Shown: positions 7,734 to 42,361, counted from the first letter of the stretch. The stretch is DNA of 64,000 nt from Kofleriaceae bacterium (GCA_046597055.1 JBKJLC010000293.1:32001-96000); one strand, 5' to 3'. Numbers and translations are program-made. Notes: generated by a model not told the origin, from the letters alone.

Positions 7734-8426
7734 TCAGTCGCGGCCGTACCCGGTGTGGCTCGGCCGGGCCGCGACCGCGCCCTGCAGGTAGCGCTGGAAC
7801 GGGACCCGACGCCCGGCGTTGACGCGCCAGAACGCGAGCAGCTGGCCCTCGCGGAGGAAGGCCAGGCCGACGTCGCCCGCGGTGAGGGCCTGGGCCAGGC
7901 CGGCGGTGGTGACCACCGCGTGCGCGGCGCCGGTGGCGAGCCGCAGCCGGATCCGCACCTCGGCCCCGCCCGCCGGGTTCGGGTCGAACGCGCCCTCGAA
8001 CATCGCGACCGAGCGCACGACCAGCGCGCGCCGGTGGTAGGTCTGGCGGCCGAAGCCCACCCCGGCCGCCGCCCAGGCCACGCCCGCCAGCGCGGCCAGC
8101 ACCCCCACCGTGGACAGGCCGAGCGCGGCCAGCGCGCTGACGGCCGCCAGGATGCCGACGCCGGTCATGACGGCGGCGAGATCGTAGGCGCTCGCCGGCG
8201 GCGCGTAGAGACCGAGCTCGGACATGCGCAAGAATTCCGGGTGATGGGCGACCTGCCGCATGCGCGCGAGGTCGTGGTCGCGGAGATTGGTGCCACGCGC
8301 CAGCTGGGGCGGCTGCCCGGACGCGGTCTCGCCGACCCCGGACGACGAGGTCGCGCTGAACCGCCCGGTGACGACACGGTCCGACCGCATCACCTCGGGG
8401 ACGGGCGGGCGAGACGTGCTGGGCAT
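7734..8426 (-). CDS. Hypothetical membrane protein (start uncertain)
   Basis: Two hydrophobic segments in the 7734..8531 ORF. Confidence 0.5.
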   Translation of the reverse strand: MPSTSRPPVPEVMRSDRVVTGRFSATSSSGVGETASGQPPQLARGTNLRDHDLARMRQVAHHPEFLRMSELGLYAPPASAYDLAAVMTGVGILAAVSALAALGLSTVGVLAALAGVAWAAAGVGFGRQTYHRRALVVRSVAMFEGAFDPNPAGGAEVRIRLRLATGAAHAVVTTAGLAQALTAGDVGLAFLREGQLLAFWRVNAGRRVPFQRYLQGAVAARPSHTGYGRD

Positions 8427-8603
8427 ACCGGGTCGACGGAGGTCCCGCGGCGTCTTCCCGCGCAACGCCGCGAGTGCCAGCTTCTGCCGCCCATGACCAC
8501 CGGCCGTGGGCCCGATCGCACGCGCACGCACGCGCGCACGGCGCGGCTCGGTCGGCGCTCCGCCGGTACCGCCGAGTCGGGCGGGCGTCCCTGATCCGGG
8601 AAG

Positions 8604-11588
8604 TCAGGGCGCGGGCAGCCGCTCGAACAGCACGACGCTCGCGGCCCAGCTGGCGGGATCGCGGGCGACGTAGGCGGCGCGCAGCGCGGCGAGCGCGACC
8701 GCGGGCGCCTCGCCGGCCGAGATCCGTCCGCGCAGCTCATCGAAGAACCGGGTCGCCTGATCGTCGGGGATGTCGACGGTCGGCGCCACCACCGCGCGCG
8801 CGCCGGCCTCGACGAACGCATCGGGCAGGCTCCACCGCTTGTGGAGGAAGGGCGCGACCTCGGCGGCGCGACACGCCGCCAGCACGATCACCGGGGCGGC
8901 CGCAAACCGGGCCCGGCGCACCGCCGCCGCGGTCAGCGCCCAGCCACCATCGGCGCCCGGCGACAGCGCGAGGAACGACGCGTCGGCGATGCCGAGGTCG
9001 ACCTTGCCGTGGACGTGCAGCTCGGCGTAGGTCGCGGTGGCCAGCTCGGCGAGCACCCGCGCCGGGGTCGCGTCGGCGCCGCGCAGGGCGATCGCGCCGG
9101 GCGACGCTGGCCGGGGCGCGAGCGCGGGCAGCCCCAGCGCCGGCGGCGGCACCGCGTCGCCGACCACGAGCTCGCGCGGCGCGGCCGCGGTCGCACCCGC
9201 GGCCAACCGCCCCGACGCCCCGGCGACGAACGCCCACGGCAGCTCGACCGGCAGCAGCCCGGCGTGGCCGTGCACCGGCGGTCGCGCGAACACCGCCACC
9301 GACCGGCAGCCGCGCAGCGCCGCCCGCAGCGCCGCGGGCACCAGCGTGGCGTCGTCCCACGCGACCGCGGTGCCGACCTCGGTGTACGCGCCGGTCGCCG
9401 CGCCGTCGGGGCCACGCACGGCGGCGGTGCCGCGGGTGTCGTCGACGCTCACCGCCAGCGCGCACTGCGCCGGCGCCGCCACCCCCAGCTCGCCGGCGAC
9501 CGTGGTCACGACCTCGGCCCACGCACCGCGCCGGCCGGCGTCGTCGACCATCGTCGCGTAGATCCATCCGCGCTGCACGTCGTCGCCGTCGCGGGTCGCC
9601 GCCTGCGCCAGCTGGCGCAGGCGCGCCACCGCGCCCGGGTCCCGCTCGAGGTCGAGGCGCGCGCGCGCGACCTCGCGGGTCAGCCGCACCGCCGGATCGT
9701 CGACCTCCGCGGCCGCCGCCAGCCACAGCTCGGCCCGGGCCCGGTCGGCCGGGCTGCCCGACATGCGCGCGCGATCGACGAACGCGATCAGCTCGAGCGG
9801 GGCCGGATCGACCCCGCAGTCGCGCGGGCCCGGCAGCTCGACCGGGAGCGGCGCCGCGCTGGTGTAGATGTCGGTGAGCGCCAGGCCGATCGTCGCGAAC
9901 CGCGCGGTCGCGCAGACATCGCCGGCGCGGGCGCGCACCTCGGCGAACGTGGCCTGCGCCAGCGCCACTCGATCGCGGCCGCGCTGGTACTCGGCCAGCA
10001 GCCCGAGCGCGTGATCCTCGAGCGAGGGCGCGCCCGCCGCCGCGAAGTCGCGGACCGCGATCACCGCGTGCTCCTCGGCCTCGGGGAAGCGCGCGACCTC
10101 GCCGTAGAGCTGCGCCAGGTCGAGCGCCAGCGCGCCGCACCGGTGCGCCCAGGCCCGGGCGTCGCACCCGGCGAGCCCCGCGCGCAGGTGGGTCTCCGCG
10201 CGATCATCATCGCCGCGGTCGCGCATGTGCCGGGCCTGCTCGCGCACGGCGAGGAGCCCGAACCACGGGTCACCGGTGGCGACGGCGAGCCGGGTGAGGT
10301 CGGCCAGCCGGGTCTGGCTGGCGCCGGTCAGCATGATCGCGCCGAGCAGGAGGTCGGCCACCGCGGGCCCGGCCCGGTCGAGCCTCGCGACCAGCGCGGC
10401 ACCGTCGGCCGGCTGCGCGCGGCCGCGCGCCAGCTCGCGGTAGGCGCCCGCCAAGGGCGCGCGCGTCTGGAAGCTGGCGGCGGCCACGCGGTCGACCGCC
10501 CGCCGCGCGGCGTTGGTGCCGGCCAGGCGGTCGAGCTCGTCGGCGAGCGGGCCCAGCGCGAGCGCCTGGTCCCGGCTGATCGCGGCCCGGAGCGCGTCGT
10601 GGAAGTAGAGGCGGGTCAGCCCCGGCCGCTGCCGGGCGTGCTCGGCGGTGAGCGGCGGACCGGTGCGGTCGATCATCGCCTGGGCGGCGGCGTTGAACGC
10701 GAGCAGCCCCTCCGCGCGCCGGAGCATGGGCGCGCGCAGGCTCTGCGCCCGCGCCCGCGCCTCGTCGGACCAGCCCGGCTCGCCAGCGGCGGCGACCTGG
10801 TCGAGCTCACCGGCGGCGGTCAACGCCAGGCCCAGCTCGCGCAGCGCGAGCCCGCGGTTCCAGCGCGCCGCCACCAGCGTCGGCGCGGCGGCCAGCGCGC
10901 GATCGGCGGCCGCCAGCGCATCCTCGGGACGACCGGCCAGCACCGCGAGCGCGGCCAGATCGGCGTCGCGCGCGGGTGCCGGCGGCATCGCCTCGAGCAC
11001 CTGGCGAGCGCGGGCCAGCTCGCCGCTGGCCGCGTGCGCCGCCAGCAAGCTCGCGCGATCGCCGCGGCGTTCGAGATCGGCGAGCACCTGCAGCGACACG
11101 GCTTCGTGGCTGGCCTGGCTGCGGCTGACCACGTAGGGCCGGTGCCGCGCGAACGGCTCGGCGGTGAACCGGACCTCGACCGCGCGCTGCTCGGCGAGCG
11201 CGAGCGCCAGCGCGGGCGCCTCCACGAACGCGGGCGCCTTGCCCACCGCGGGCTCACGGCCAACCCGGCCCACCAGCAACACGCCCGCCGCCGCCGCCAG
11301 CGCCACCCCGACCAGCGGGACCGCCCGGCGCCAGCGGCCGCTCGCCGCGCGCGGCGCTGGCCGCGTCACGATCGAGGCCGCCGGCGCCATCGCGGCCTTG
11401 CCGGCGAGCACGGTGTCGAGCCCGACCAGATCGCCGAGCTCGTGCTGACAGCGGGTGCAGGTCGCGAGGTGGCGCAGCGCCGCGGCCTCCTGGTCGGGCC
11501 GCAGCTCGCCGTCGAAGTAGCGCGCGACCTGCGCGTGCGGATCGGCGATCGGTTCGCTCATTGGATCGCTCCCGGATCGGTCACTCAT
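8604..11588 (-). CDS. zf-HC2 anti-sigma-like N-terminus, TM, TPR-like region and C-terminal CHAT (caspase-like) domain
   Basis: HLATCTRC near N-terminus; LHVHG and VIVLAAC in the C-terminus; AFVEAGARAVVA. Confidence 0.8.
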   Translation of the reverse strand: MSDRSGSDPMSEPIADPHAQVARYFDGELRPDQEAAALRHLATCTRCQHELGDLVGLDTVLAGKAAMAPAASIVTRPAPRAASGRWRRAVPLVGVALAAAAGVLLVGRVGREPAVGKAPAFVEAPALALALAEQRAVEVRFTAEPFARHRPYVVSRSQASHEAVSLQVLADLERRGDRASLLAAHAASGELARARQVLEAMPPAPARDADLAALAVLAGRPEDALAAADRALAAAPTLVAARWNRGLALRELGLALTAAGELDQVAAAGEPGWSDEARARAQSLRAPMLRRAEGLLAFNAAAQAMIDRTGPPLTAEHARQRPGLTRLYFHDALRAAISRDQALALGPLADELDRLAGTNAARRAVDRVAAASFQTRAPLAGAYRELARGRAQPADGAALVARLDRAGPAVADLLLGAIMLTGASQTRLADLTRLAVATGDPWFGLLAVREQARHMRDRGDDDRAETHLRAGLAGCDARAWAHRCGALALDLAQLYGEVARFPEAEEHAVIAVRDFAAAGAPSLEDHALGLLAEYQRGRDRVALAQATFAEVRARAGDVCATARFATIGLALTDIYTSAAPLPVELPGPRDCGVDPAPLELIAFVDRARMSGSPADRARAELWLAAAAEVDDPAVRLTREVARARLDLERDPGAVARLRQLAQAATRDGDDVQRGWIYATMVDDAGRRGAWAEVVTTVAGELGVAAPAQCALAVSVDDTRGTAAVRGPDGAATGAYTEVGTAVAWDDATLVPAALRAALRGCRSVAVFARPPVHGHAGLLPVELPWAFVAGASGRLAAGATAAAPRELVVGDAVPPPALGLPALAPRPASPGAIALRGADATPARVLAELATATYAELHVHGKVDLGIADASFLALSPGADGGWALTAAAVRRARFAAAPVIVLAACRAAEVAPFLHKRWSLPDAFVEAGARAVVAPTVDIPDDQATRFFDELRGRISAGEAPAVALAALRAAYVARDPASWAASVVLFERLPAP

Positions 11589-35742: not shown

Positions 35743-35810
35743 CCTGCGCTGGTCGCCTGCACGTGACCGGTGGCGGTCGGCCGGGCGTCGGCGACCGCGG
35801 CGGTGATGCG

Positions 35811-35882
35811 TACCCACGAAGGGAATCGAACCCTCTCCATCGGTTTGAAAGGCCGAGGTCCTGACCACTGGACGACGCGGGC
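35811..35882 (-). tRNA. tRNA-Glu(TTC)
   Basis: Cloverleaf; anticodon loop CTTTCAA; T loop GGTTCGATTCC. Confidence 0.85.
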
Positions 35883-35896
35883 GGTGACAGACGGGG

Positions 35897-35964
35897 TGCC
35901 TCTGGCAGGAATCGAACCTGCTCACCAGGTGTCGGAGACCCGGGTCGGATCCGTCCACAGAGGC
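35897..35964 (-). tRNA. tRNA-Arg(CCG), shortened D arm
   Basis: Acceptor GCCTCTG/CAGAGGC; loop CTCCGAC. Confidence 0.7.
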
Positions 35965-35975
35965 GAGAAACGCGG

Positions 35976-36049
35976 AGCCCACCGACGGATTCGAACCGTC
36001 CTCTCTCCCGTACCAGGGGGGTGTGTCCGACCAGGATCACCAGATGGGC
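35976..36049 (-). tRNA. tRNA-Thr(GGT)
   Basis: Loop CTGGTAC; GGTTCGAATCC. Confidence 0.75.
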
Positions 36050-36062
36050 GTGAGCGTTGCGG

Positions 36063-36135
36063 TCGGGATCGAGAGGATCGAACTCTCCCATTTCGCCGTG
36101 TGAGAGCGACCTCACCCCCAGGTGAGCTGATCCCG
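36063..36135 (-). tRNA. tRNA-Val(CAC)
   Basis: Acceptor CGGGATC/GATCCCG; loop CTCACAC. Confidence 0.75.
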
Positions 36136-36142
36136 ATTTCAA

Positions 36143-36216
36143 TGGAGCACTCGCCCGGATTTGCACCGGGATGACACGGTTTGCAGCCATGCGCCTGACT
36201 CTTCGGCCACGAGTGC
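36143..36216 (-). tRNA. tRNA-Cys(GCA), CCA encoded
   Basis: Loop CTGCAAA; U73; ends TCCA. Confidence 0.85.
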
Positions 36217-36220
36217 GTGG

Positions 36221-36294
36221 TGGTGGACCCGGGGGGATTCGAACCCCCGTCTCTGCTGTGCGAGAGCAGGATCTTGCCGCTGGACGACAGGCCC
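36221..36294 (-). tRNA. tRNA-Ala(CGC), CCA encoded
   Basis: Loop CTCGCAC; G3:U70. Confidence 0.88.
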
Positions 36295-36308
36295 GGAAGG
36301 AACACGAG

Positions 36309-36381
36309 CGGCCCTGACGGGAATCGAACCCGCCTGGATCTCATAGACAGTGAGAGAACGTCACCAGACGTATCCAGGGCC
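36309..36381 (-). tRNA. tRNA-Asp(GTC)
   Basis: Loop CTGTCTA; G73. Confidence 0.8.
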
Positions 36382-36403
36382 GTGAACGAGAGACGAATGA
36401 TGT

Positions 36404-36477
36404 TGGTGGAGTCGGACGGATTCGCACCGTCGTCACTGACATGCCGAGCCAGTGTTCTGCTGTTGAACTACGACCCC
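36404..36477 (-). tRNA. tRNA-Ala(GGC), CCA encoded
   Basis: Loop TCGGCAT; G3:U70. Confidence 0.8.
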
Positions 36478-36481
36478 GGGG

Positions 36482-36554
36482 TCCCGTCGATGGGAATCGA
36501 ACCCACCTGGTACTGGGAGACAGCCAGCTGACGTCACCAGACGTCTCCGACGAG
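36482..36554 (-). tRNA. tRNA-Asp(GTC), second copy, A73
   Basis: Loop CTGTCTC; D arm shared with the 36309 copy. Confidence 0.7.
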
Positions 36555-36564
36555 CAGACAGACG

Positions 36565-36635
36565 TGGAGCTGGAGGGAATCGCACCCCCGTCGCTGGCAT
36601 GTCGGACCAGCATTCTGCTGTTGAACTACAGCTCC
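36565..36635 (-). tRNA. tRNA-Val(GAC)
   Basis: Loop CCGACAT; acceptor GGAGCTG/CAGCTCC. Confidence 0.78.
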
Positions 36636-36639
36636 TCAG

Positions 36640-36711
36640 TCGGAATGACAGGACTTGCACCTGCAGCCTCACCGTCCCGAACGGCGCGTTCTTCTATTGA
36701 ACTACATCCCG
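36640..36711 (-). tRNA. tRNA-Pro(CGG)
   Basis: Loop TTCGGGA; C1:G72, A73. Confidence 0.85.
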
Positions 36712-36814
36712 AGGCGGACGAGGGCCCGACCCGGGGGGGCCGGTCGGACAGGTCCTCGTCCTGTGGAAACATGAGAGCTCGGCCGCAGGCGCCGCCTGAC
36801 GCGAACGTAGTGAG

Positions 36815-36900
36815 CGGAAGGAAAGGGAATCGAACCCTCGACACATGGATCCTGTGCGCGCGATTAGCAGTCGCGGTCCTCGACCAGCCGGACTCCTTCC
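36815..36900 (-). tRNA. tRNA-Ser(GCT)
   Basis: Loop CTGCTAA; long variable arm; G73. Confidence 0.85.
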
Positions 36901-36972
36901 CGAACCGACCCACGACGGACGCTGACTGTCGACCGAGATCGGCAGCCGGGCTCCGGGGTGGGTATCGGTTTG

Positions 36973-37064
36973 CGGAGGGAGAGGGAGTCGAACCCCCAAG
37001 GCATCTCGAAGATGCTCGCGCGGCTTTCGAAACCGGCACCGTCGCCACATCGGCTTGCCCCTCC
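36973..37064 (-). tRNA. tRNA-Ser(CGA)
   Basis: Loop TTCGAAA; long variable arm; G73. Confidence 0.85.
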
Positions 37065-37178
37065 AGATCGATGCCTCACGCGCCACCCTGCTGGCGCCAC
37101 GACCGGGGCCATCACTCCCTGGTCGCGGCGCTCCGCCGCCGCCGCCCACCCGCCGCCACGTGTGTCAACGCGAGAGAG

Positions 37179-37727
37179 TCACGAGGCCAGCTCCCCGTCG
37201 CTCTCGATCTCGCCGGTCCAGTACAAGTAGTCACGCCACGCGTCAGGCATCGACCGCGTGCTGACCCTGATCGTCACCGCCGGCACCCAGGTCGGGCGCG
37301 CCGGCTCCATCCGCAGCTTCATCCCGGCCTCGGCCGGCGTCCGGTTGCCCTTCGATCCGTTGCACGGATAGCAGCAGGTCACGATGTTCTCCCAGGTGGT
37401 CTTGCCGCCGCGGGCACGGGGAACCACGTGGTCGTAGGTCAGCTCCGCCAGCGTGCACTTGGTCGCGCAGTACTGGCACTTGTAGCCGTCACGCGCGTAG
37501 ATGTTCACGCGCGAGAACTTGACGGGCTTGCGGTATCGCCGGAACGCACGGATCAACCGCACGACCGCCGGCACCTTGATGATGAGCGTCACCGCTCGGA
37601 TCTCGGCGTCGTACTCCTCGACCACCTCCACCTTGCCGAGGGTCAGGAGGGTGATCGCCCGCTGCCACGGGATGACCTTGATGGGCTCGTACCCCTGCGA
37701 CAGGAGCAGCGTCGTCGCGTGACTCAT
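37179..37727 (-). CDS. HNH endonuclease inside the tRNA array
   Basis: RDGYKCQYC, TYDHVVPRARGG, WENIVTCCYPCNGSKGN. Confidence 0.93.
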   Translation of the reverse strand: MSHATTLLLSQGYEPIKVIPWQRAITLLTLGKVEVVEEYDAEIRAVTLIIKVPAVVRLIRAFRRYRKPVKFSRVNIYARDGYKCQYCATKCTLAELTYDHVVPRARGGKTTWENIVTCCYPCNGSKGNRTPAEAGMKLRMEPARPTWVPAVTIRVSTRSMPDAWRDYLYWTGEIESDGELAS

Positions 37728-37789
37728 GACGGTCCGTGTTCCTTTCCCCGGTCACTGTCTTTCAGGCGCGCCCCGGTGCCAGCGCGCCA

Positions 37790-37811
37790 TCGGCCCACGA
37801 CGTGTGGGCAA
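37790..37811 (-). promoter_or_regulatory. Ro-site-like bulged-C hairpin upstream of the HNH gene
   Basis: TTGCCCAC-ACGTC-GTGGG[C]CGA. Confidence 0.55.
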
Positions 37812-37824
37812 AAACTGCGTGTCG

Positions 37825-37899
37825 TGCCCTCCGTCGGATTCGAACCGACACTGCCCAGATTCTGAGACTGGTGACTCCTTCCAGTTGGTCTAGGAGGGC
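37825..37899 (-). tRNA. tRNA-Leu(CAG) with short variable region
   Basis: Loop CTCAGAA; variable region only GCAGT; A73. Confidence 0.75.
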
Positions 37900-37900
37900 G

Positions 37901-37977
37901 TGGAGTGATCGACGGGACTCGCACCCGCTAGGACGAGGTTCACGGCCTCGCGCCTGGACGACTTTGGCTTCGATCAC
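37901..37977 (-). tRNA. tRNA-His(GTG), atypical (U73, no encoded G-1), CCA encoded
   Basis: Loop CCGTGAA; acceptor GTGATCG/CGATCAC. Confidence 0.75.
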
Positions 37978-37979
37978 GG

Positions 37980-38050
37980 TCCGCCCGGGAGGAATCGCAC
38001 CTCCGTCGTCCGGTTATCGGCCGGGTGCTCTGCTGTTGAGCTACGGGTGG
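37980..38050 (-). tRNA. tRNA-Ile(GAT)
   Basis: Loop CCGATAA. Confidence 0.75.
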
Positions 38051-38057
38051 GAAAGAC

Positions 38058-38185
38058 TGGGGTGGGTGGCCTGGATTCGAACCTGGCATCTGCGGCTCCC
38101 TGAGAACCCTCTTCTGACGGCCCGGTGACGGGCAAGCTGACGAGGAGGGGCCATAACCGCCGTCCTGCCACTGGACGACACCCAC
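38058..38185 (-). ncRNA. tRNA-shaped Y-RNA-like element A, CCA encoded
   Basis: Acceptor, D and T arms intact; anticodon loop replaced by ~60 nt containing CTTGCCCG-TCAC-CGGGCCG. Confidence 0.75.
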
Positions 38186-38199
38186 GTACGAAGTAGCAG

Positions 38200-38326
38200 T
38201 GCAGGCAGCTGGACTCGAACCAGCGTCACACGCGTTAACACGATAACCATCCAGCGTCGGCCCGCGACCGGGCGAGGTGAGTACAGGACGGATCCACGTT
38301 GCGCTACCGGGCTGAGCTACACCTGC
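38200..38326 (-). ncRNA. tRNA-shaped Y-RNA-like element B
   Basis: Insert with CTCGCCCG-GTCG-CGGGCCGA...GGATGGTTATCG. Confidence 0.75.
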
Positions 38327-38347
38327 GAAGAAACACAACACGAGTCG

Positions 38348-38472
38348 TGTGGACGGCCGGAGTCGAACCGGCGCGTGCGGTTTGCGACGATAACCGACTT
38401 CGACGGCCCGTGACCGGGCGAGGGTTGTGAAGACGAGATCTTTCCGCCGTCCTACCGTTAGACGACGTCCAC
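38348..38472 (-). ncRNA. tRNA-shaped Y-RNA-like element C
   Basis: Insert with CTCGCCCG-GTCA-CGGGCCG...GGTTATCG. Confidence 0.75.
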
Positions 38473-38477
38473 GTGCG

Positions 38478-38605
38478 TGCAGGTGGCTGGATTCGAACCA
38501 GCGGCCAACGGATTGATAATCGATGACCATCCGACATCGGCCCGTCGCCGGGCGAGGTTGTGAAGGACGGGTTTACGTTGCTCTACCGGACTGAGCTACA
38601 CCTGC
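38478..38605 (-). ncRNA. tRNA-shaped Y-RNA-like element D
   Basis: Insert with CTCGCCCG-GCGA-CGGGCCGA...GGATGGTCATCG. Confidence 0.75.
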
Positions 38606-38620
38606 AAAGAAAAACATGCG

Positions 38621-38692
38621 TCTGGATGACTGGAATCGCACCAGCGGCCTCGTGATCCCCGAACACGCGCCCTGCTCCTGAGCTACACCCAG
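38621..38692 (-). tRNA. tRNA-Pro(GGG)
   Basis: Loop TCGGGGA; C1:G72, A73. Confidence 0.75.
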
Positions 38693-38693
38693 A

Positions 38694-38792
38694 TGGGGCG
38701 GGACTTTGGATTCGAACCATGTAGACCGATAACCATCCATCGTTCGGCCCGTTTCCGGGCAAGGGCACTTTGATAGACGGACTCGTCCCGCC
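38694..38792 (-). ncRNA. Y-RNA-like element E without a D arm
   Basis: GGCGGGAC/GTCCCGCC-CCA stem, GGTTCGAATCC, CTTGCCCG-GAAA-CGGGCCGA...GGTTATCG. Confidence 0.7.
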
Positions 38793-38797
38793 AGAAG

Positions 38798-38867
38798 TCG
38801 CAACGGAAGGACTCGAACCTTCACCGGCGCGGATATGAGCCGCGCGTCCTCGCCCGAGGTCGCTGCG
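38798..38867 (-). tRNA. tRNA-Met/Ile2(CAT), small D loop
   Basis: Stem CGCGG/CCGCG; loop CTCATAT. Confidence 0.72.
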
Positions 38868-38868
38868 A

Positions 38869-38939
38869 TGGGGCAACGGCGGGAGTCGCACCCACTGACC
38901 GGCGGGAACCCCGCCGGTCCTCCACGCGAACTCGTTGCC
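38869..38939 (-). pseudogene. Degenerate tRNA-like element (GTT in an over-paired anticodon arm)
   Basis: GGCAACG/CGTTGCC-CCA; T loop GGTGCGACTCC; CCGGCGGG-GTT-CCCGCCGG. Confidence 0.55.
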
Positions 38940-38944
38940 ACGAG

Positions 38945-39011
38945 CACGCCGCCAGAGAATCGAACTCTGCAGTCCGGGGTTGGAATCCAGACTCTTCCCA
39001 GAAGGCGACGC
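38945..39011 (-). tRNA. tRNA-Trp(CCA), shortened D arm
   Basis: Loop TTCCAAC; G73. Confidence 0.65.
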
Positions 39012-39080
39012 AAGTTGCAAGCATCAACATGTCACTTCCACTCCCCTCCAGTTACAGCTCGAGAATAGAAGTGGCGATCG

Positions 39081-39150
39081 TGCCACCGACAGGATTCGAA
39101 CCCGTACCGACGACGTTCGTAGCGTCGCGTCCCATCCTCGGGACGGTGGC
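39081..39150 (-). tRNA. tRNA-Arg(ACG)
   Basis: Stem CGACG/CGTCG; loop CTACGAA. Confidence 0.8.
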
Positions 39151-39152
39151 AG

Positions 39153-39345
39153 ACAGGCAAGTGGCTGTGTTGGAGTGCGCCTTGTTCAGGGGCGCGGCGT
39201 CCAGAGCGCGCGGTTGCCCGTTTACGCTCGTCGACACGCACGCGGCGATCTACGAGAGACCGCCTCGCGCTGGCTCGCATCGGTCGCCCGATGGTCGCTA
39301 CCTTGGGCCCGTTATAGTTACGGTAACCAACACATTCCGGCCCGT
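39153..39345 (-). ncRNA. Y-RNA-like RNA carrying a 23S rRNA H69-H71-like module
   Basis: Termini ACGGG[C]CGG / CTTGCCTGT; inner stem TGTGTTGG/CCAACACA; contains CCGTAACTATAACGGGCCCAAGGTAGCGA. Confidence 0.7.
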
Positions 39346-39349
39346 GACG

Positions 39350-39422
39350 TATCCCTGGGGGGAATCGAACCCGCCATACCTGGTTTGAGAGACCAGTAGA
39401 CTGACCACTGTCTGACAGGGAC
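39350..39422 (-). tRNA. tRNA-Glu(CTC)
   Basis: Stem CTGGT/ACCAG; loop CTCTCAA. Confidence 0.82.
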
Positions 39423-39472
39423 ATCTTCGCGTGGCGCTTGCGCCCAAGGCGCCTCACGCCACGCGATCTTCG

Positions 39473-39545
39473 AGGGCCCGGCGGGAATCGAACCCGCACC
39501 TCGCAGTTTAACAGACTGCCGCTCAGCCAGTTGAGCTTCGGACCC
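39473..39545 (-). tRNA. tRNA-Asn(GTT)
   Basis: Stem GCAGT/ACTGC; loop CTGTTAA. Confidence 0.85.
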
Positions 39546-39617
39546 AGACACGCCACGGTCGTGAGACCGCGGCGCGTGCGTGTTGAGGGCGACTCTCGTC
39601 GTGGCCTGGGCCGAAGC

Positions 39618-41255
39618 CTAGGCGCGGGCGAAGTCGCTGATCACCGGCGGCGTCGCCGTGTCGAAACCGACCACGTCGAGCATGCCGGCGTCGTTCGGGT
39701 CCGCGATCGTGAACCCGTTCGAGGTCATCCCGACCACCACCAGCTTGGCCGGGATGCCGCGCGCCTGTCGATAGGCGCGCAGGGCCTGGGCCGGGTGCAC
39801 GCTCCCGGCCCAGGTCTCGCTGTCCGTGTACACCACGAAGGTGTCCACATCCACCTTGTGCCGCTGCGCCCAGATCATCGGGAGCGCGCAGTCGGTTCCA
39901 CCCATCGGCAGCTTGGCGACCGCCGCGACCACGTCGTCGAGCCGCTGGCGCGGCGAGATCGACAGGGTCGTGATGCCCGACTCGCCACCGCCGTGCATGC
40001 CGCCGTAGCCACCGCTCGCCGCGGTGAAGCCCACGAACGTGTGGTCACGCTCGGTCGCCGCGGTGATCAGCGCCATCGCCGCGCTGCCGACCCGCGGCGT
40101 CAGGCCGGGCACCCCGGCGATGGTGCCGCACGCCATCGAGCCCGACACGTCGAGCGCGAGCAGCATGCGCTTGCCGGCCGGCTCGACCGCCTTGAACGAG
40201 GCGTAGAACGCACCGTCCAGGGCGTCGATGATCGGCGTCACCGGCGTCCAGGTGCCGCTGCCACGGACGCTCTTGCCACCCTGGTAGGTCAGGAGCGCCG
40301 CCAGGACCGCGACCGGGTGGACGCGGGCCTTGGCGATCCGGTTCGCATCACCCAGCCGCGCGACCACGGTGTTGGTCGCGTTGGCACCCGGCGCGAGCAA
40401 GCCCGCACGGGTCATCGTGGCCAGGTTCCGGATCATCGCCGTCATGGGCATGTCGACCAGCAGCGCGTCCCACACGCCGGCGTCGTTCAGCCAGCGCGTC
40501 GGCAGCGTCTCGCGCGGCAGCCGGAACTCGCGCACCAGCGCCGCCACCTCGGCCGCAGTACCGGCCGCCTTCACCGCCTCCATGCCGATCAGCAACCGCA
40601 GCGCCGGGTCGGCGCTCGCGCCATCCGGCACGGTTCCCTTGGTCACCCACGAGAACAGCCGATCGTGCGATGGCGACGCGGCGCGCGGGTGCGCGAGCCG
40701 CAGCAGGTCTCGGTTCGACCAGCCGTCCCGCTGCTGGTACTTCACCAGCTGCAGCGCGAGGTCGGCCGCCGGCTTGTCGTTGAACCAGCCGGCCACCGCC
40801 TTGCGCATGCCACGGCCCCAGCCGCCGAAGCCCTGCGCGTACTCCGCGAAGTGCATGAGGTGAGTGCCGATGCGGCAGACCGTCGGCAGGGCAGCGTAGG
40901 CGCTCTTGCGAGTCGCCTCGTCGCCGAGCTTGGCGGCCAGCGCCAGGGCGAAGATCGCCGGGTCGTTCTTGGGCGCCCGACCCGCCTGCGAGATCTCGGC
41001 GATCCGCGCGACCGTGCGCGGACCGTCGGCTGCCACGCAGCGGACCACCGTCTGGGCAGTCTCGAGCGTCAGCTTCTGCTCGGAGATGTAGTAGGTGCCG
41101 CCCTCGCTACCCAGGATGAGGAAGCGATCGAGCCGCGCCCAGTCGTCGACCGGCCAGGCGAAGCCCCCGGCCAGGTTCGGCACCTGCGCCGTACCCGGGA
41201 TCGGCTGCGACTGCGGCGTCGCCTGCGTCGAGAAGAACTTGGTGAACTTGAACAC
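39618..41255 (-). CDS. rsr: Ro60 / TROVE-domain RNA-binding protein
   Basis: TPQSQPIPG, RLDRFLILGSEGGTYY, KYQQRDGW, AMIRNLATMT, vWA DVSGSM, GGTDCALP, TDSETW; GTG start with GGAGG. Confidence 0.96.
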   Translation of the reverse strand: MFKFTKFFSTQATPQSQPIPGTAQVPNLAGGFAWPVDDWARLDRFLILGSEGGTYYISEQKLTLETAQTVVRCVAADGPRTVARIAEISQAGRAPKNDPAIFALALAAKLGDEATRKSAYAALPTVCRIGTHLMHFAEYAQGFGGWGRGMRKAVAGWFNDKPAADLALQLVKYQQRDGWSNRDLLRLAHPRAASPSHDRLFSWVTKGTVPDGASADPALRLLIGMEAVKAAGTAAEVAALVREFRLPRETLPTRWLNDAGVWDALLVDMPMTAMIRNLATMTRAGLLAPGANATNTVVARLGDANRIAKARVHPVAVLAALLTYQGGKSVRGSGTWTPVTPIIDALDGAFYASFKAVEPAGKRMLLALDVSGSMACGTIAGVPGLTPRVGSAAMALITAATERDHTFVGFTAASGGYGGMHGGGESGITTLSISPRQRLDDVVAAVAKLPMGGTDCALPMIWAQRHKVDVDTFVVYTDSETWAGSVHPAQALRAYRQARGIPAKLVVVGMTSNGFTIADPNDAGMLDVVGFDTATPPVISDFARA

Positions 41256-41261
41256 GGCACG

Positions 41262-41322
41262 CCTCCGGCCCACGCGGTGGGCACTGCTGGTTGGGCTCGG
41301 CCACGCACCATGCGCGGCGAGC
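41262..41322 (-). promoter_or_regulatory. Two Ro-site-like hairpins in the rsr leader, one abutting the SD
   Basis: GCTCGCCGCGCA-TGG-TGCGTGG[C]CGAGC and TGCCCAC-CGC-GTGGG[C]CG-GAGG. Confidence 0.6.
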
Positions 41323-41417
41323 GAGATCTGTAATGAGGAATCGCTTCGCGAAGCGCTCGATGCCTCCCGGCGGCATCGCCGCCGCACCACCGGAGGTGGC
41401 GGACTGGCGAGTCTTCG

Positions 41418-41489
41418 AGCCGGTCGGAGGAATCGAACCTCGTTGGGTCGCTTACGGAACGACTGCTCGCCCAGCGAGCTACGACCGGC
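41418..41489 (-). tRNA. tRNA-Thr(CGT)
   Basis: Loop TCCGTAA; GGTTCGATTCC. Confidence 0.75.
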
Positions 41490-41497
41490 GGAAACTG

Positions 41498-41556
41498 GCG
41501 GACAAGTGGCACTCGTGGGGGTCTGTTATCAGGAGAACCCACGAGCATCGGCCCGC
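41498..41556 (-). ncRNA. Minimal (~59 nt) Y-RNA-like stem
   Basis: GCGGG[C]CGA-T-GCTCGTGGG...CCCACGAGT-GCCAC-TTGTCCGC. Confidence 0.7.
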
Positions 41557-41560
41557 GCAG

Positions 41561-41631
41561 AGCGGCGCGCGGGAGTTGCACCCGCACGGTCAGGGTGGAG
41601 GCCTGGCATGCTGCTGTTACATCAGCGCCGC
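41561..41631 (-). tRNA. tRNA-Gly(TCC)
   Basis: Loop CCTCCAC; U73. Confidence 0.78.
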
Positions 41632-41641
41632 GACACGAAAG

Positions 41642-41712
41642 AGCAGGTGGTGGGAATCGAACCCGCGATCCCGGCATGGCGTACCGGTGTGTCACCACAA
41701 CACTTCACCTGC
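41642..41712 (-). tRNA. tRNA-Gly(GCC)
   Basis: Loop ACGCCAT; U73. Confidence 0.75.
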
Positions 41713-41795
41713 GGCGGTGTGCCTCGAGTGTCCTCGGGGCCACCTGACGGTCGTCGGCGCGCTCGGCAGGGCTTCGCGCGTCGACGAACGCATCG

Positions 41796-41870
41796 TGGGT
41801 CGGGCGGGAATCGAACCCGCGTCGGGGCAGATTAAGAATCTGCTGCAAAGCCAGCGTTTGCTACCGACCC
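41796..41870 (-). tRNA. tRNA-Lys(CTT)
   Basis: Stem GCAGA/TCTGC; loop TTCTTAA. Confidence 0.85.
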
Positions 41871-41899
41871 AGTTGCCGCGCCAGGCGCGGCGAGTCTCG

Positions 41900-41972
41900 T
41901 CCCACCCCCTGGAATCGAACCAGGACCTCTCGGGCTTCAGCCAAGCGCGCAGACCACATGCGCCAGGGTGGG
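41900..41972 (-). tRNA. tRNA-Phe(GAA)
   Basis: Loop CTGAAGC. Confidence 0.8.
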
Positions 41973-42063
41973 GTTGTGCGGTCGCCGCCGACCGCTGGGG
42001 AGCGGGTGACGACGACCTTCCGAAATGGGCGCCCGCGCTACCGGGCGCCCCATCATTCGTCTC

Positions 42064-42080
42064 TTCGGTTGTCAGAGATC
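42064..42080 (-). promoter_or_regulatory. Possible boxA-like antitermination element
   Basis: GATCTCTGACAACCGAA resembles rrn leader boxA-type sequences. Confidence 0.35.
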
Positions 42081-42150
42081 CACCCCGCGCGTCCGTCGGC
42101 CCGTGCGGGCAGACCTCGAGCGGGGCCGCGCCGTTTCATGGGCGCAGCAG

Positions 42151-42224
42151 TACCGGGCCCAGGATTCGAACCTGGATCTGTACGGTTCAGAGCCGTCCGT
42201 CGTGCCGAGTTGGACCAGCCCGGT
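42151..42224 (-). tRNA. tRNA-Gln(CTG)
   Basis: Loop CTCTGAA; GGTTCGAATCC. Confidence 0.78.
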
Positions 42225-42276
42225 GCGTGTCAGTAAGTGCGTCGATCGCCAGTCCCATGACTGACAACGATCGCAG

Positions 42277-42361
42277 TGGGGCGCCCAGGTTTTGAACCTG
42301 GCGGGTCGCGTGCGACGGCGGCTTTACAGGCCGCCCCGTCTCCATAGCGGTCTATCGCCCC
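42277..42361 (-). tRNA. tRNA-Tyr(GTA), first gene of the array
   Basis: Loop CTGTAAA; long variable arm; A73. Confidence 0.82.

What the first reader, a model, noticed from the sequence alone, without database searches (positions are those of the whole stretch)
38058..38605. Four tandem tRNAs with the anticodon loop replaced by a Ro-binding module
Seen: elements A-D (125-128 nt) keep tRNA acceptor, D and T arms. In place of a 7-nt anticodon loop each has ~60 nt with a closed hairpin CTYGCCCG-N4-CGGG[C]CG and a downstream GGTTATCG-like motif. The N4 loops vary (TCAC, GTCG, GTCA, GCGA) while the helix is fixed. A encodes CCA. Established: the metazoan Ro site is GGUCCGA paired with UUGACC around a bulged C; typical YrlA has its ends in the Ro stem. 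Inference: these are circularly permuted Y RNAs with true tRNA ends, so RNase P, CCA addition and perhaps aminoacylation could act on them and deliver Ro60 to ribosomes or tRNA enzymes. I recall an isolated permuted YrlA being reported, so the novelty may be the multi-copy family rather than the topology.
Basis: partly seen in the sequence, partly recalled or inferred. Interest (0 to 1): 0.88.

Follow-up and report, generated by a model that had tools for sequence, protein, structure and literature searches.

The report
tRNA-ordered Y RNAs beside Ro60 gene
Five small RNA genes just downstream of a bacterial Ro60 (rsr) gene are built like complete tRNAs that carry an extra capped hairpin matching the Ro60-binding stem of known Y RNAs, so they are likely Ro60 partners that would be cut out and finished like tRNAs: a rearranged and apparently undescribed layout of a known RNA family.

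Summary
On the minus strand at 38058-38605 lie four tRNA-shaped elements (A-D). All sit in a 27-tRNA array, 0.8-1.6 kb downstream of rsr (39618-41390), which encodes a full-length Ro60 orthologue.

Each element carries a ~55-nt arm made of two helices, a one-base bulge and a 4-nt cap. The arm has the same parts as the Rsr-binding stem of Y RNAs, but closed by a loop, while the acceptor stem is open. This is the reverse of YrlA.

- **Structure:** the arm covaries (94.6% paired against 33-55% for slid controls).
- **Specificity:** it occurs only at this locus in the 8.4-Mb genome.
- **Distribution:** it recurs 130 times in 53 of 80 rsr loci from several phyla, 123 times on the rsr strand.
- **Correction:** the arm is usually inserted in the 5' strand of the anticodon stem, and most relatives keep an anticodon-like loop.

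Rsr binding, RNase P and CCA processing, and charging are inferred, not shown. No RNA data were found.

Verdict: a new variant (tRNA order) of the known YrlA kind. I found no description in the papers I could search, and four relevant papers (three reviews and Burroughs and Aravind 2016) could not be read. This scan has noted the same layout before on other DNA.

The parts
38058..38185 (-). Element A: a tRNA-shaped RNA with a Ro-type arm. The arm (model R1 hit) is at 38094-38155. The acceptor is GUGGGUG/CACCCAC, followed by an encoded C-CCA. The T stem has an A-A mismatch, and the region 3' of the arm is degenerate.
   Evidence: Sequence. R1 hit of 35.0 bits, E 7.8e-07. The minimum-free-energy fold gives the cloverleaf plus a long arm.
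38201..38326 (-). Element B. The arm is at 38234-38297 with cap GUCG. The acceptor is GCAGGUG/UGCCUGC with discriminator A. ACGUG (27-31) pairs with CGCGU (39-43) around the arm.
   Evidence: Sequence. R1 hit of 50.6 bits.
38349..38472 (-). Element C. The arm is at 38381-38441 with cap GUCA. It carries GUCGAAG, an exact GNCGAAN0-1G motif, in the 3' arm. The acceptor is GUGGACG/CGUCCAC.
   Evidence: Sequence. R1 hit of 41.0 bits. Motif check.
38479..38605 (-). Element D. The arm is at 38514-38576 with cap GCGA (a GNRA tetraloop). The anticodon stem is split: ACG lies 5' of the arm and GA 3' of it, and together they pair with UCCGU. A 7-nt loop UUAUCAA is retained. The D arm is identical to the YrlA consensus D arm.
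   Evidence: R1 hit of 57.4 bits. Split stem 5 of 5 pairs. Rfam alignment.
38694..38791 (-). It is a D-armless copy made of an acceptor GCGGGAC/GUCCCGC, the arm (38720-38786, cap GAAA), a weak T arm and an encoded C-CCA. One base separates it from tRNA-Pro. It carries GCCGAACG, an exact GNCGAAN0-1G motif.
   Evidence: Sequence. R1 hit of 48.3 bits. Motif check. Orthologues in L019, L021, L022 and L023.
39618..41390 (-). rsr, the Ro60 orthologue (590-aa frame).
   Evidence: Pfam TROVE 5.3e-45 and vWA_Ro60 8.2e-64. PDB 1yvp 5.9e-130 and 2nvo 2.1e-128 over nearly the full length.
39153..39345 (-). An open-ended Y-RNA-like gene whose two end strands are the two halves of the same arm. The 5' strand reads CGGGCCG-GAAUG-UGUUGG-UUACC and the 3' strand reads CCAACA-CAGCCACUU-GCCUG.
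Evidence: I read the sequence.
41495..41560 (-). An open-ended hairpin Y RNA with the same arm halves. The 5' strand reads CGGGCCG-AUGCU-CGUGGG-UUCUC and the 3' strand reads CCCACGAG-UGCCACUU-GUCCG.
Evidence: I read the sequence.
35810..42361 (-). The tRNA array that holds rsr and all of the above.
   Evidence: 25 ARAGORN tRNAs, all on the minus strand. One more by Rfam at 37980-38050.

Best explanation
A-E are Y RNAs in tRNA order, and they are predicted to bind the Rsr (Ro60) protein encoded just upstream.

**Shown.** Each is a tRNA body with an open 7-bp acceptor stem, a T arm and (except E) a D arm. From the anticodon stem a conserved, covarying, loop-capped arm projects. The arm has the helix / bulged-C / internal-loop / helix / YUAY layout of the Rsr-binding stem of YrlA-type Y RNAs. 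The arm is found only beside rsr.

**Inferred.**
- The array is transcribed with its tRNAs.
- RNase P would cut the 5' end and tRNA 3'-end enzymes the other end. CCA is encoded in A and E and would be added to B-D.
- Rsr would bind the arm on the outside of its ring.
- The tRNA body would serve as the effector or tether domain, as proposed for YrlA. Here it would be a single RNA with a free CCA end, where M. smegmatis YrlA becomes two pieces.

Which factor the tRNA body recruits is unknown.
For: **Context**
- rsr is a full-length Ro60 orthologue.
- A-E lie 0.8-1.6 kb downstream on its strand.

**Arm structure**
- On 73 copies, 94.6% of cells pair against 33-55% with slid partners.
- The covariation score is 0.359 against at most 0.109 for slid partners, and 0 of 500 shuffles reach it.
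- Helix 2 shows GU, GC, CG, UG and AU at one pair.

**Specificity**
- Five hits at E<=1e-4 in the 8.4-Mb genome, all at this locus.
- In 41 relatives' whole genomes there are 39 hits in 16 genomes. All 16 are among the 20 with TROVE, and none of the 21 without TROVE has a hit.
- 37 of the 39 hits are on the TROVE contig and strand, within about 6.2 kb. The other 2 are on other contigs of fragmented assemblies.

**Spread**
- 130 hits at E<=0.01 in 53 of 80 rsr loci. 123 are on the rsr strand. The median distance is 986 nt and the maximum 3375 nt, within 6-kb flanks.

**tRNA order**
- In 74 of 130 copies, the 7 nt just 5' of a U8/D-arm site pair 7 of 7 with the 7 nt after the T arm. With shuffled 3' strands the mean is 1.7 and the maximum 6.
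- Among the 91 parsed copies: U8 in 87 of 91, A14 in 87 of 91, GG in the D loop in 87 of 91, and G53-C61 in 91 of 91.
- Caps are 3-8 nt in 113 of 130. Of 54 tetraloops, 22 are GNRA or UNCG.
- Helix 2 pairs better within an element than with its neighbour: 96.1% against 85.1%, better in 29, worse in 2 and tied in 25 of 56 adjacent pairs.
- CCA follows the discriminator in 17 of the 111 copies that passed the loose frame test. The position is set by the T arm, not by that test.
- At least 11 arm-bearing relatives pass Rfam's tRNA gathering score along the whole model.

**Likeness to Y RNAs**
- The same arm occurs split open in two Y-RNA-like genes of this locus.
- YUAY follows helix 2 in 112 of 130 copies. 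YUAY is a conserved YrlA motif.
- AUGCU/AUGUC and ACUUGUC-type strands match the Rfam YrlA consensus.

**Precedent**
- M. smegmatis YrlA is cut by RNase P and receives CCA in vivo (Chen et al. 2014, passages read).
Against: - No RNA evidence of any kind. Expression, ends, CCA and Rsr binding are all unshown.
- The strict GNCGAAN0-1G motif that Chen et al. link to Rsr recognition is present in only 13 of 130 arms, and in C and E only among the window's five.
- Rfam's YrlA model scores at most 31 bits against a gathering score of 69. Even that hit is a chimera of tRNA-Pro's T arm and D's D arm.
- Single-sequence folding is unremarkable, with z from -2.4 to +0.2. Only A's minimum-free-energy fold gives the comparative structure.
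- A has a mismatched T stem and a degenerate 3' junction, so it may be decaying.
- Relatives in the loci are kin, so counts overstate independence.
- The covariance model was built from copies that I picked by pattern.
Confidence: 0.8

Rival explanations
1. They are working, decoding tRNAs with an expansion arm, and any link to Rsr concerns their quality control.
For: - The tRNA body is complete.
- 57 of 75 scored relatives keep a 7-nt loop with U33 and R37, often CUNNNAA.
- Several relatives pass Rfam's tRNA threshold.
Against: - The 'anticodon' differs among close orthologues with near-identical bodies: CUU, GUU and UGU in L033:9198, L034:8748 and L060:8842.
- D's would be AUC. A34 outside tRNA-Arg is not normal in bacteria (established knowledge).
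- A-C lack a proper 7-nt loop on a 5-bp stem.
- E has neither a D arm nor an anticodon arm.
- A 55-nt arm on the anticodon stem should clash with the decoding site (inference).
Confidence: 0.07
2. The arm is an intron that is removed to give ordinary tRNAs.
For: The insert lies in the anticodon arm, where tRNA introns lie. The genome has four RtcB ligase genes.
Against: - None of the RtcB genes is on this contig.
- Bacteria are not known to have the tRNA splicing endonuclease (established knowledge; also stated in the text read).
- The insertion point varies: 0 to 5 stem nucleotides lie before it, and in one Desulfonema copy it sits in the D loop (my reading).
- The arm is conserved and covaries as an RNA structure.
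- The arm also occurs without any tRNA frame.
- The tRNAs left after removal would have unconserved anticodons.
Confidence: 0.03
3. The real RNAs have the usual YrlA order and run from the middle of one element to the middle of the next, with ends in the Ro stem.
For: - Rfam's YrlA model aligns full length across neighbours (31.0 and 18.5 bits).
- Neighbour halves could still pair: helix 1 at 97.0% and helix 2 at 85.1%.
- Chen et al. list a 190-nt 'YrlA' 189 nt from Ro in Sorangium (supplementary table). That may be such a read-across, though I did not see that sequence.
Against: - It needs a cut inside 3-8-nt caps, many of them GNRA or UUCG tetraloops.
- Helix 2 pairs better within elements: 29 better against 2 worse.
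- Acceptor strands pair within, not between, elements.
- 21 of the 53 loci with a hit hold a single copy, with no neighbour to pair with.
- CCA is encoded after the acceptor stem in A, E and others.
Confidence: 0.05
4. They are decaying tRNA pseudogenes that carry a repeat and have no function.
For: A has a mismatched T stem and a degenerate junction. ARAGORN calls none of the five.
Against: - Compensatory changes keep both helices and the tRNA stems.
- The family is present beside rsr in MAGs labelled Myxococcota, Chloroflexota, Actinomycetota, Cyanobacteria and Armatimonadota kin, in Thiotrichaceae and Parabeggiatoa MAGs, and in the Desulfonema magnum genome.
Confidence: 0.03

Closest known systems
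YrlA (Y RNA-like A; Rfam RF02553; Chen et al. 2014, PMC4201824; Wang et al. preprint 10.1101/312249)
   Same: - Encoded within 4 kb of rsr on its strand.
- A tRNA-like domain with near-canonical T and D arms.
- An Rsr-type stem with an internal loop and a conserved YUAY at the junction.
- A less-conserved hairpin before the T arm (their 'V').
- Several copies per locus are reported.
   Different: - The order is reversed. In YrlA the RNA ends form the Rsr stem and the acceptor stem is a closed loop.
- Here the Rsr-type stem is capped and the acceptor stem is open, sometimes with an encoded CCA.
- Rfam's model does not reach its threshold (31 against 69 bits).
- The strict GNCGAAN0-1G motif is in 13 of 130 arms.
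M. smegmatis YrlA after processing (Chen et al. 2014, passages read)
   Same: [quoted passage not shown] Rsr is therefore bound to an RNA with tRNA-type ends.
   Different: There the gene has the usual YrlA order, and cutting yields two base-paired pieces (~82 and ~65 nt). Here a single continuous RNA would result.
Plain hairpin Y RNAs (YrlB, Yrn2, metazoan Y RNA RF00019)
   Same: The same kind of bulged Ro-binding helix. One such gene sits at 41495-41560 in this window. A relative scores 34.4 bits on RF00019 against a gathering score of 38.
   Different: They have no tRNA body, and their ends lie in the Ro stem.
tmRNA, one-piece and permuted two-piece forms (recalled knowledge; Rfam lists tmRNA_permuted, seen)
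   Same: An RNA with a tRNA-like acceptor/T domain and a CCA end joined to a non-tRNA module. It is a family that exists in two circular permutations.
   Different: It has a different partner (SmpB) and carries a message. Alanine identity (G3-U70) is absent from the window's five copies, though G-U at pair 3 occurs in 13 of 91 relatives.
b7a-tRNA of Burroughs and Aravind 2016 (known to me only through the passage)
   Same: A predicted tRNA-like RNA of RNA-repair loci, said to lie occasionally beside Rsr.
   Different: It is described there as strongly resembling an authentic tRNA and as associated with a Band-7 protein. No Ro-type arm is mentioned in the passage I read. The paper itself was not held, so overlap cannot be excluded.

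Membership tests
YrlA (RF02553) | Encoded near rsr (within 4 kb) on the same strand | tested here: met
   A-E lie 0.8-1.6 kb downstream of rsr on the minus strand. In the family, 123 of 130 are on the rsr strand and all are within 3.4 kb.
YrlA (RF02553) | tRNA-like domain with conserved T and D arms | tested here: met
   In 91 parsed copies: U8 in 87, A14 in 87, GG in the D loop in 87, and G53-C61 in 91. E lacks a D arm.
YrlA (RF02553) | GNCGAAN0-1G motif in the strand that Rsr is thought to contact | tested here: inconclusive
   Exact in C and E, and a near match in B and D (GCCGAC, GCCGAU). It occurs in 13 of 130 arms, against 0 of 130 in the opposite half.
YrlA (RF02553) | Conserved YUAY at the junction after the second helix | tested here: met
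   112 of 130 arms. In the window: UUAU in B, C and E; UCAU in D; UUCU in A.
YrlA (RF02553) | RNA ends pair to form the Rsr-binding stem, and the acceptor stem is a closed loop | tested here: not met
   The Rsr-type stem is capped by 3-8 nt in 113 of 130 copies. The acceptor strands lie at the element's two ends.
YrlA (RF02553) | Reaches Rfam's gathering score (69 bits) | tested here: not met
   The best in the window is 31.0 bits, and that hit is chimeric. There is none in 23 rsr loci.
YrlA (RF02553) | Bound by Rsr in cells | not testable with these tools
   No RNA-protein tool was available, and no RNA run is listed.
tRNA (RF00005) | Cloverleaf with a 7-bp acceptor stem, D arm and T arm | tested here: met
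   A-D are complete, and E lacks the D arm.
tRNA (RF00005) | Five-base-pair anticodon stem with a 7-nt loop and an anticodon conserved among orthologues | tested here: not met
   The stem is split by the arm. Both outer pairs form across it in 54 of 88 copies, against a shuffled mean of 15.8. The loop triplets differ among orthologues. A-C lack the loop.
tRNA (RF00005) | Called by tRNA finders | tested here: not met
   ARAGORN makes no call for A-E. Rfam's tRNA model gives 25.1 bits on part of D. At least 11 relatives do pass 29 bits along the whole model.

The most novel reading that the evidence does not exclude
These are chargeable tRNA-Y RNA hybrids. They would tie the Ro60 ring to the tRNA machinery (EF-Tu, ribosome, or tRNA repair and modification enzymes). 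Their free-varying anticodon-like loops would serve as baits or sensors for anticodon nucleases within a tRNA-array island. The tandem arrays would also be the long-sought precursor from which ordinary YrlA arose, by reading from the middle of one unit to the middle of the next.
Probability: 0.12. Interest if true: 0.9.

Novelty: new variant of a known kind. Interest (0 to 1): 0.62.

Why it matters
Y RNAs are the obligate partners of Ro60, a conserved RNA-surveillance protein and a human autoantigen. What the tRNA-like half of bacterial Y RNAs does is an open question.

- **A sharper functional test.** A widespread form with a true tRNA acceptor end, sometimes with encoded CCA, would make the tRNA mimicry literal. 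That allows direct tests: is it cut by RNase P, is it charged, and does it meet EF-Tu or the ribosome?
- **A concrete origin.** The published idea is that YrlA arose from dimeric tRNA transcripts. In tandem arrays of these units, the 3' half of one and the 5' half of the next already have the order of YrlA, and their arm halves remain 85-97% complementary.
- **Annotation.** Such genes are missed both by the Rfam YrlA model and, in this window, by tRNA finders.

Tried and rejected
- **Rfam at gathering scores.** Only tRNAs were found, with no YrlA in the window or in 23 rsr loci. Sub-threshold YrlA hits in the window are read-across chimeras.
- **ARAGORN.** No call for A-E.
- **DNA search of the phage collection with the element region.** Only a tRNA-Asn-like stretch matched.
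- **Three phage Ro loci (Bxz1, Cashline, Sham).** No significant closed arm (best E 0.057). There are usual-order YrlA-like hits of 32-42 bits upstream of Ro. So the known phage Y RNAs are not of this form in those three.
- **My first test for a tRNA frame.** It asked for any 7-mer within 95 nt pairing at least 6 of 7, and gave 111 of 130. Reversed or shuffled 3' strands gave 89 and 82, so I discarded it. I replaced it with the anchored test.
- **Single-sequence folding.** The z-scores are weak, and I do not use them as evidence.
- **Promoter and terminator scan.** No promoter-like sites, and 7 terminator-like sites against 3.2 expected. Not informative.
- **Sequencing runs.** No RNA holder is listed, and I laid no reads.
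- **RtcB.** Four genes, none on this contig.
- **Papers not held, so not read.** Burroughs and Aravind 2016, Sim et al. 2020, Sim and Wolin 2018 and Boccitto and Wolin 2019. Any of them might describe this layout.
- **Searches behind 'no description found'.** on the held library only. File 6 of the Chen et al. supplements was not searchable.
- **Readings rejected.** The intron, decoding-tRNA, read-across and pseudogene readings. See the rival explanations.

Full report
**What is there**

The window's minus strand carries a tRNA array from 35810 to 42361. ARAGORN finds 25 tRNAs, all on that strand. Rfam adds one at 37980-38050. By eye there is a further His-like one at about 37900-37975.

Inside the array, at 39618-41390, is a 590-aa frame with TROVE (5.3e-45) and Ro60 vWA (8.2e-64) domains. 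It matches solved Ro60/Rsr structures over nearly its whole length: 1yvp at 5.9e-130 and 2nvo at 2.1e-128. This is rsr. The nearest relatives of the protein are in MAGs labelled Kofleriaceae, Myxococcales or Haliangiales.

**The observation**

Between 0.8 and 1.6 kb downstream of rsr, on the same strand, lie five elements:
- E, 38694-38791
- D, 38479-38605
- C, 38349-38472
- B, 38201-38326
- A, 38058-38185

- a 7-bp acceptor stem, a D arm and a T arm;
- a hairpin CU(C/U)GCCCG-N4-CGGGCCG with caps UCAC, GUCG, GUCA and GCGA;
- a GGUUAUCG-like motif;
- C-CCA after A's acceptor stem.

E was missed. It has an acceptor stem, the same hairpin (cap GAAA), a weak T arm, no D arm, and also an encoded C-CCA. 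Neither ARAGORN nor Rfam at gathering scores calls any of the five.

**The arm is a real, conserved structure tied to rsr**

I collected relatives from 15 of 16 same-genus genomes and from 80 rsr loci found with the Rsr protein. I aligned 73 arms.

The proposed structure is a 6-bp helix 2, an asymmetric internal loop, a 6-bp helix 1 with a one-base bulge, and a cap. Support for it:
- 94.6% of cells pair, against 33-55% when partners are slid by 1-3 columns.
- 47 cells have changes on both sides, against 4-27 for slid partners.
- The covariation score is 0.359, against at most 0.109 for slid partners. None of 500 shuffles reaches it.

A covariance model of the arm (R1) gave these results:
- **Own genome (8.4 Mb):** five hits at E<=1e-4, all at this locus. 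The next hit is at E 0.42.
- **80 rsr loci:** 130 hits at E<=0.01 in 53 loci, 123 on the rsr strand. The median distance from rsr is 986 nt and the maximum 3375 nt, within 6-kb flanks.
- **41 whole genomes of relatives:** 39 hits in 16 genomes. All 16 are among the 20 that have TROVE, and none of the 21 without TROVE has a hit. By my comparison of the two tables, 37 of the 39 hits are on the TROVE contig and strand, within about 6.2 kb. The other two are on different contigs of fragmented assemblies.

Two cautions apply. Kin are not independent. The model's seeds match it by construction, so the informative part is the absence of hits elsewhere.

**The order is that of a tRNA**

My first frame test was too loose, and controls showed it. 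I replaced it with an anchored test:
- 86 of 130 arms have, upstream, a site with U8, a 4-bp D stem, A14 and GG in the loop.
- In 74 of 130 copies, the seven bases just before that U8 pair 7 of 7 with the seven bases after the T arm. With shuffled 3' strands the mean is 1.7 and the maximum 6.

Features I did not select for are those of tRNAs. In 91 parsed copies, U8 is in 87, A14 in 87, GG in the D loop in 87, and G53-C61 in 91.

Further support:
- The arm's cap is 3-8 nt in 113 of 130 copies. Of 54 tetraloops, 22 are GNRA or UNCG.
- Where elements are adjacent, helix 2 pairs better within an element (96.1%) than between neighbours (85.1%). It is better in 29, worse in 2 and tied in 25 of 56 pairs.
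- CCA follows the discriminator in 17 of the 111 copies that passed the loose frame test. The position is set by the T arm, not by that test.
- At least 11 arm-bearing relatives pass Rfam's tRNA gathering score along the whole model, with the arm as an insertion.

**Where the arm sits**

The arm does not simply replace the anticodon loop. In most relatives the first two or three bases of the anticodon stem lie 5' of the arm. The rest of the 5' strand, a 7-nt loop and the whole 3' strand lie 3' of it.

- Taking two bases from the 5' side, both long-range pairs form in 54 of 88 copies. With shuffled partners the mean is 15.8 and the maximum 28 in 1000 shuffles.
- The retained loop has U33 and a purine at 37 in 57 of 75 scored copies. 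Its middle triplet varies even among close orthologues (CUU, GUU, UGU), so it is unlikely to decode.
- In the window, D has the split stem (ACG + GA with UCCGU) and a loop UUAUCAA.
- A and B have all five 5'-strand bases before the arm, and C has four. For those three, 'loop replaced by an insert' is a fair description.
- In one Desulfonema copy the arm sits in the D loop (my reading).

**Why the arm is a Ro-type stem**

1. Two other small genes of this locus, flagged by earlier notes of this scan, carry the same arm split open as their two end strands. I read both. The 5' strand is CGGGCCG-N5-helix 2-UU(A/C)YC, and the 3' strand is helix 2'-(C/U)GCCACUU-G(U/C)C(C/U)G.
2. Both strands resemble the Rfam YrlA consensus shown (cggCgaAUGCu......AcUuGucGccg). 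D's D arm is identical to the YrlA consensus D arm.
3. YUAY, a conserved YrlA junction motif (Chen et al., section read), follows helix 2 in 112 of 130 arms.
4. The helix has four pairs, then a bulged C, then two pairs, on the strand that corresponds to the 5' strand of ordinary Y RNAs. Chen et al. say only that their motif resembles GGUCCGA.

Against this, the strict GNCGAAN0-1G motif is present in only 13 of 130 arms, and in C and E only among the window's five.

**Comparison with what is known**

- YrlA RNAs are tRNA mimics encoded beside rsr. Their ends form the Rsr stem and their acceptor stem is a closed loop (Chen et al. 2014: the abstract, three sections in full and further passages; Wang et al. 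preprint: the discussion in full and passages of other sections).
- M. smegmatis YrlA is cut by RNase P in that loop and receives CCA, which gives two pieces.
- The elements here have the same parts in the opposite circular order and would give one piece.
- Three phage Ro loci that I checked have usual-order YrlA-like hits and no closed arm.
- Chen et al. discarded hits that overlapped tandem tRNA genes. They list a 190-nt 'YrlA' in Sorangium, so such arrays may have been met but read in the usual order. I did not see that sequence.
- In the held library I found no description of a tRNA-order Y RNA.
- Four relevant papers were not held, so prior description cannot be excluded.
- Earlier notes of this scan report the same layout on other DNA. 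They are unchecked AI notes and not independent evidence.

**Mechanism: shown and inferred**

*Shown:* the anatomy, its conservation, and the linkage to rsr.

*Inferred:* co-transcription with the array; 5' cutting by RNase P; 3' trimming with CCA addition or use of the encoded CCA; Rsr binding to the arm; and the tRNA body acting as the tether or effector domain.

Charging is open. None of the five window copies has G3-U70, though 13 of 91 relatives have G-U at pair 3. No RNA run holds the stretch.

**Verdict**

The finding is real and not ordinary. It is best filed as a new variant (tRNA order) of the known YrlA-type Y RNAs, multi-copy here and widespread beside rsr.

Noticed in passing
window 37900-37975 (minus strand): A tRNA-His-like gene with anticodon loop CCGUGAA, acceptor GUGAUCG/CGAUCAC and an encoded CCA. 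Neither ARAGORN nor Rfam calls it.
   Followed up: no
window 38868-39035 (minus strand): Two further uncalled tRNA-like stretches, each with a T arm and complementary 7-base ends (GCGUCGC...GCGGCGU and GGCAACG...CGUUGCC). The second has a closed G+C-rich hairpin where the anticodon arm should be. Rfam gives only weak tRNA-Sec-like hits there.
   Followed up: no
L033 5724-5882 and L060 5797-5878 (relatives; 119-203 nt upstream of rsr): Arms of the same kind in tandem without any tRNA frame, directly in front of rsr. They might be frame-less Y RNAs or a leader through which Rsr regulates its own message.
   Followed up: no
window 37179-37727 (minus strand): An HNH endonuclease gene inside the tRNA array. 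Streptomyces phage Sham likewise has its Ro-like gene in a tRNA array with HNH genes, so the island may be mobile or of phage origin.
   Followed up: partly
L096 5180-5300 (Desulfonema magnum chromosome): One copy carries the arm inside the D loop instead of the anticodon stem and keeps only a short anticodon arm. Rfam gives a weak tmRNA hit there (25.4 bits).
   Followed up: no
L061 5844-5915 (relative, just upstream of rsr): A hairpin RNA that scores 34.4 bits on the animal Y RNA family RF00019, whose gathering score is 38. It is the counterpart of the window's 41495-41560 gene.
   Followed up: no
window 38338-38350 (minus strand), between C and B: A terminator-like hairpin followed by a U-rich run. 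The array might not be one transcript.
   Followed up: no
L083 (Chloroflexia MAG), 7794-9761: Seven arm-bearing elements on the strand opposite to rsr. Several have an extra stem-loop between the D arm and the arm.
   Followed up: no
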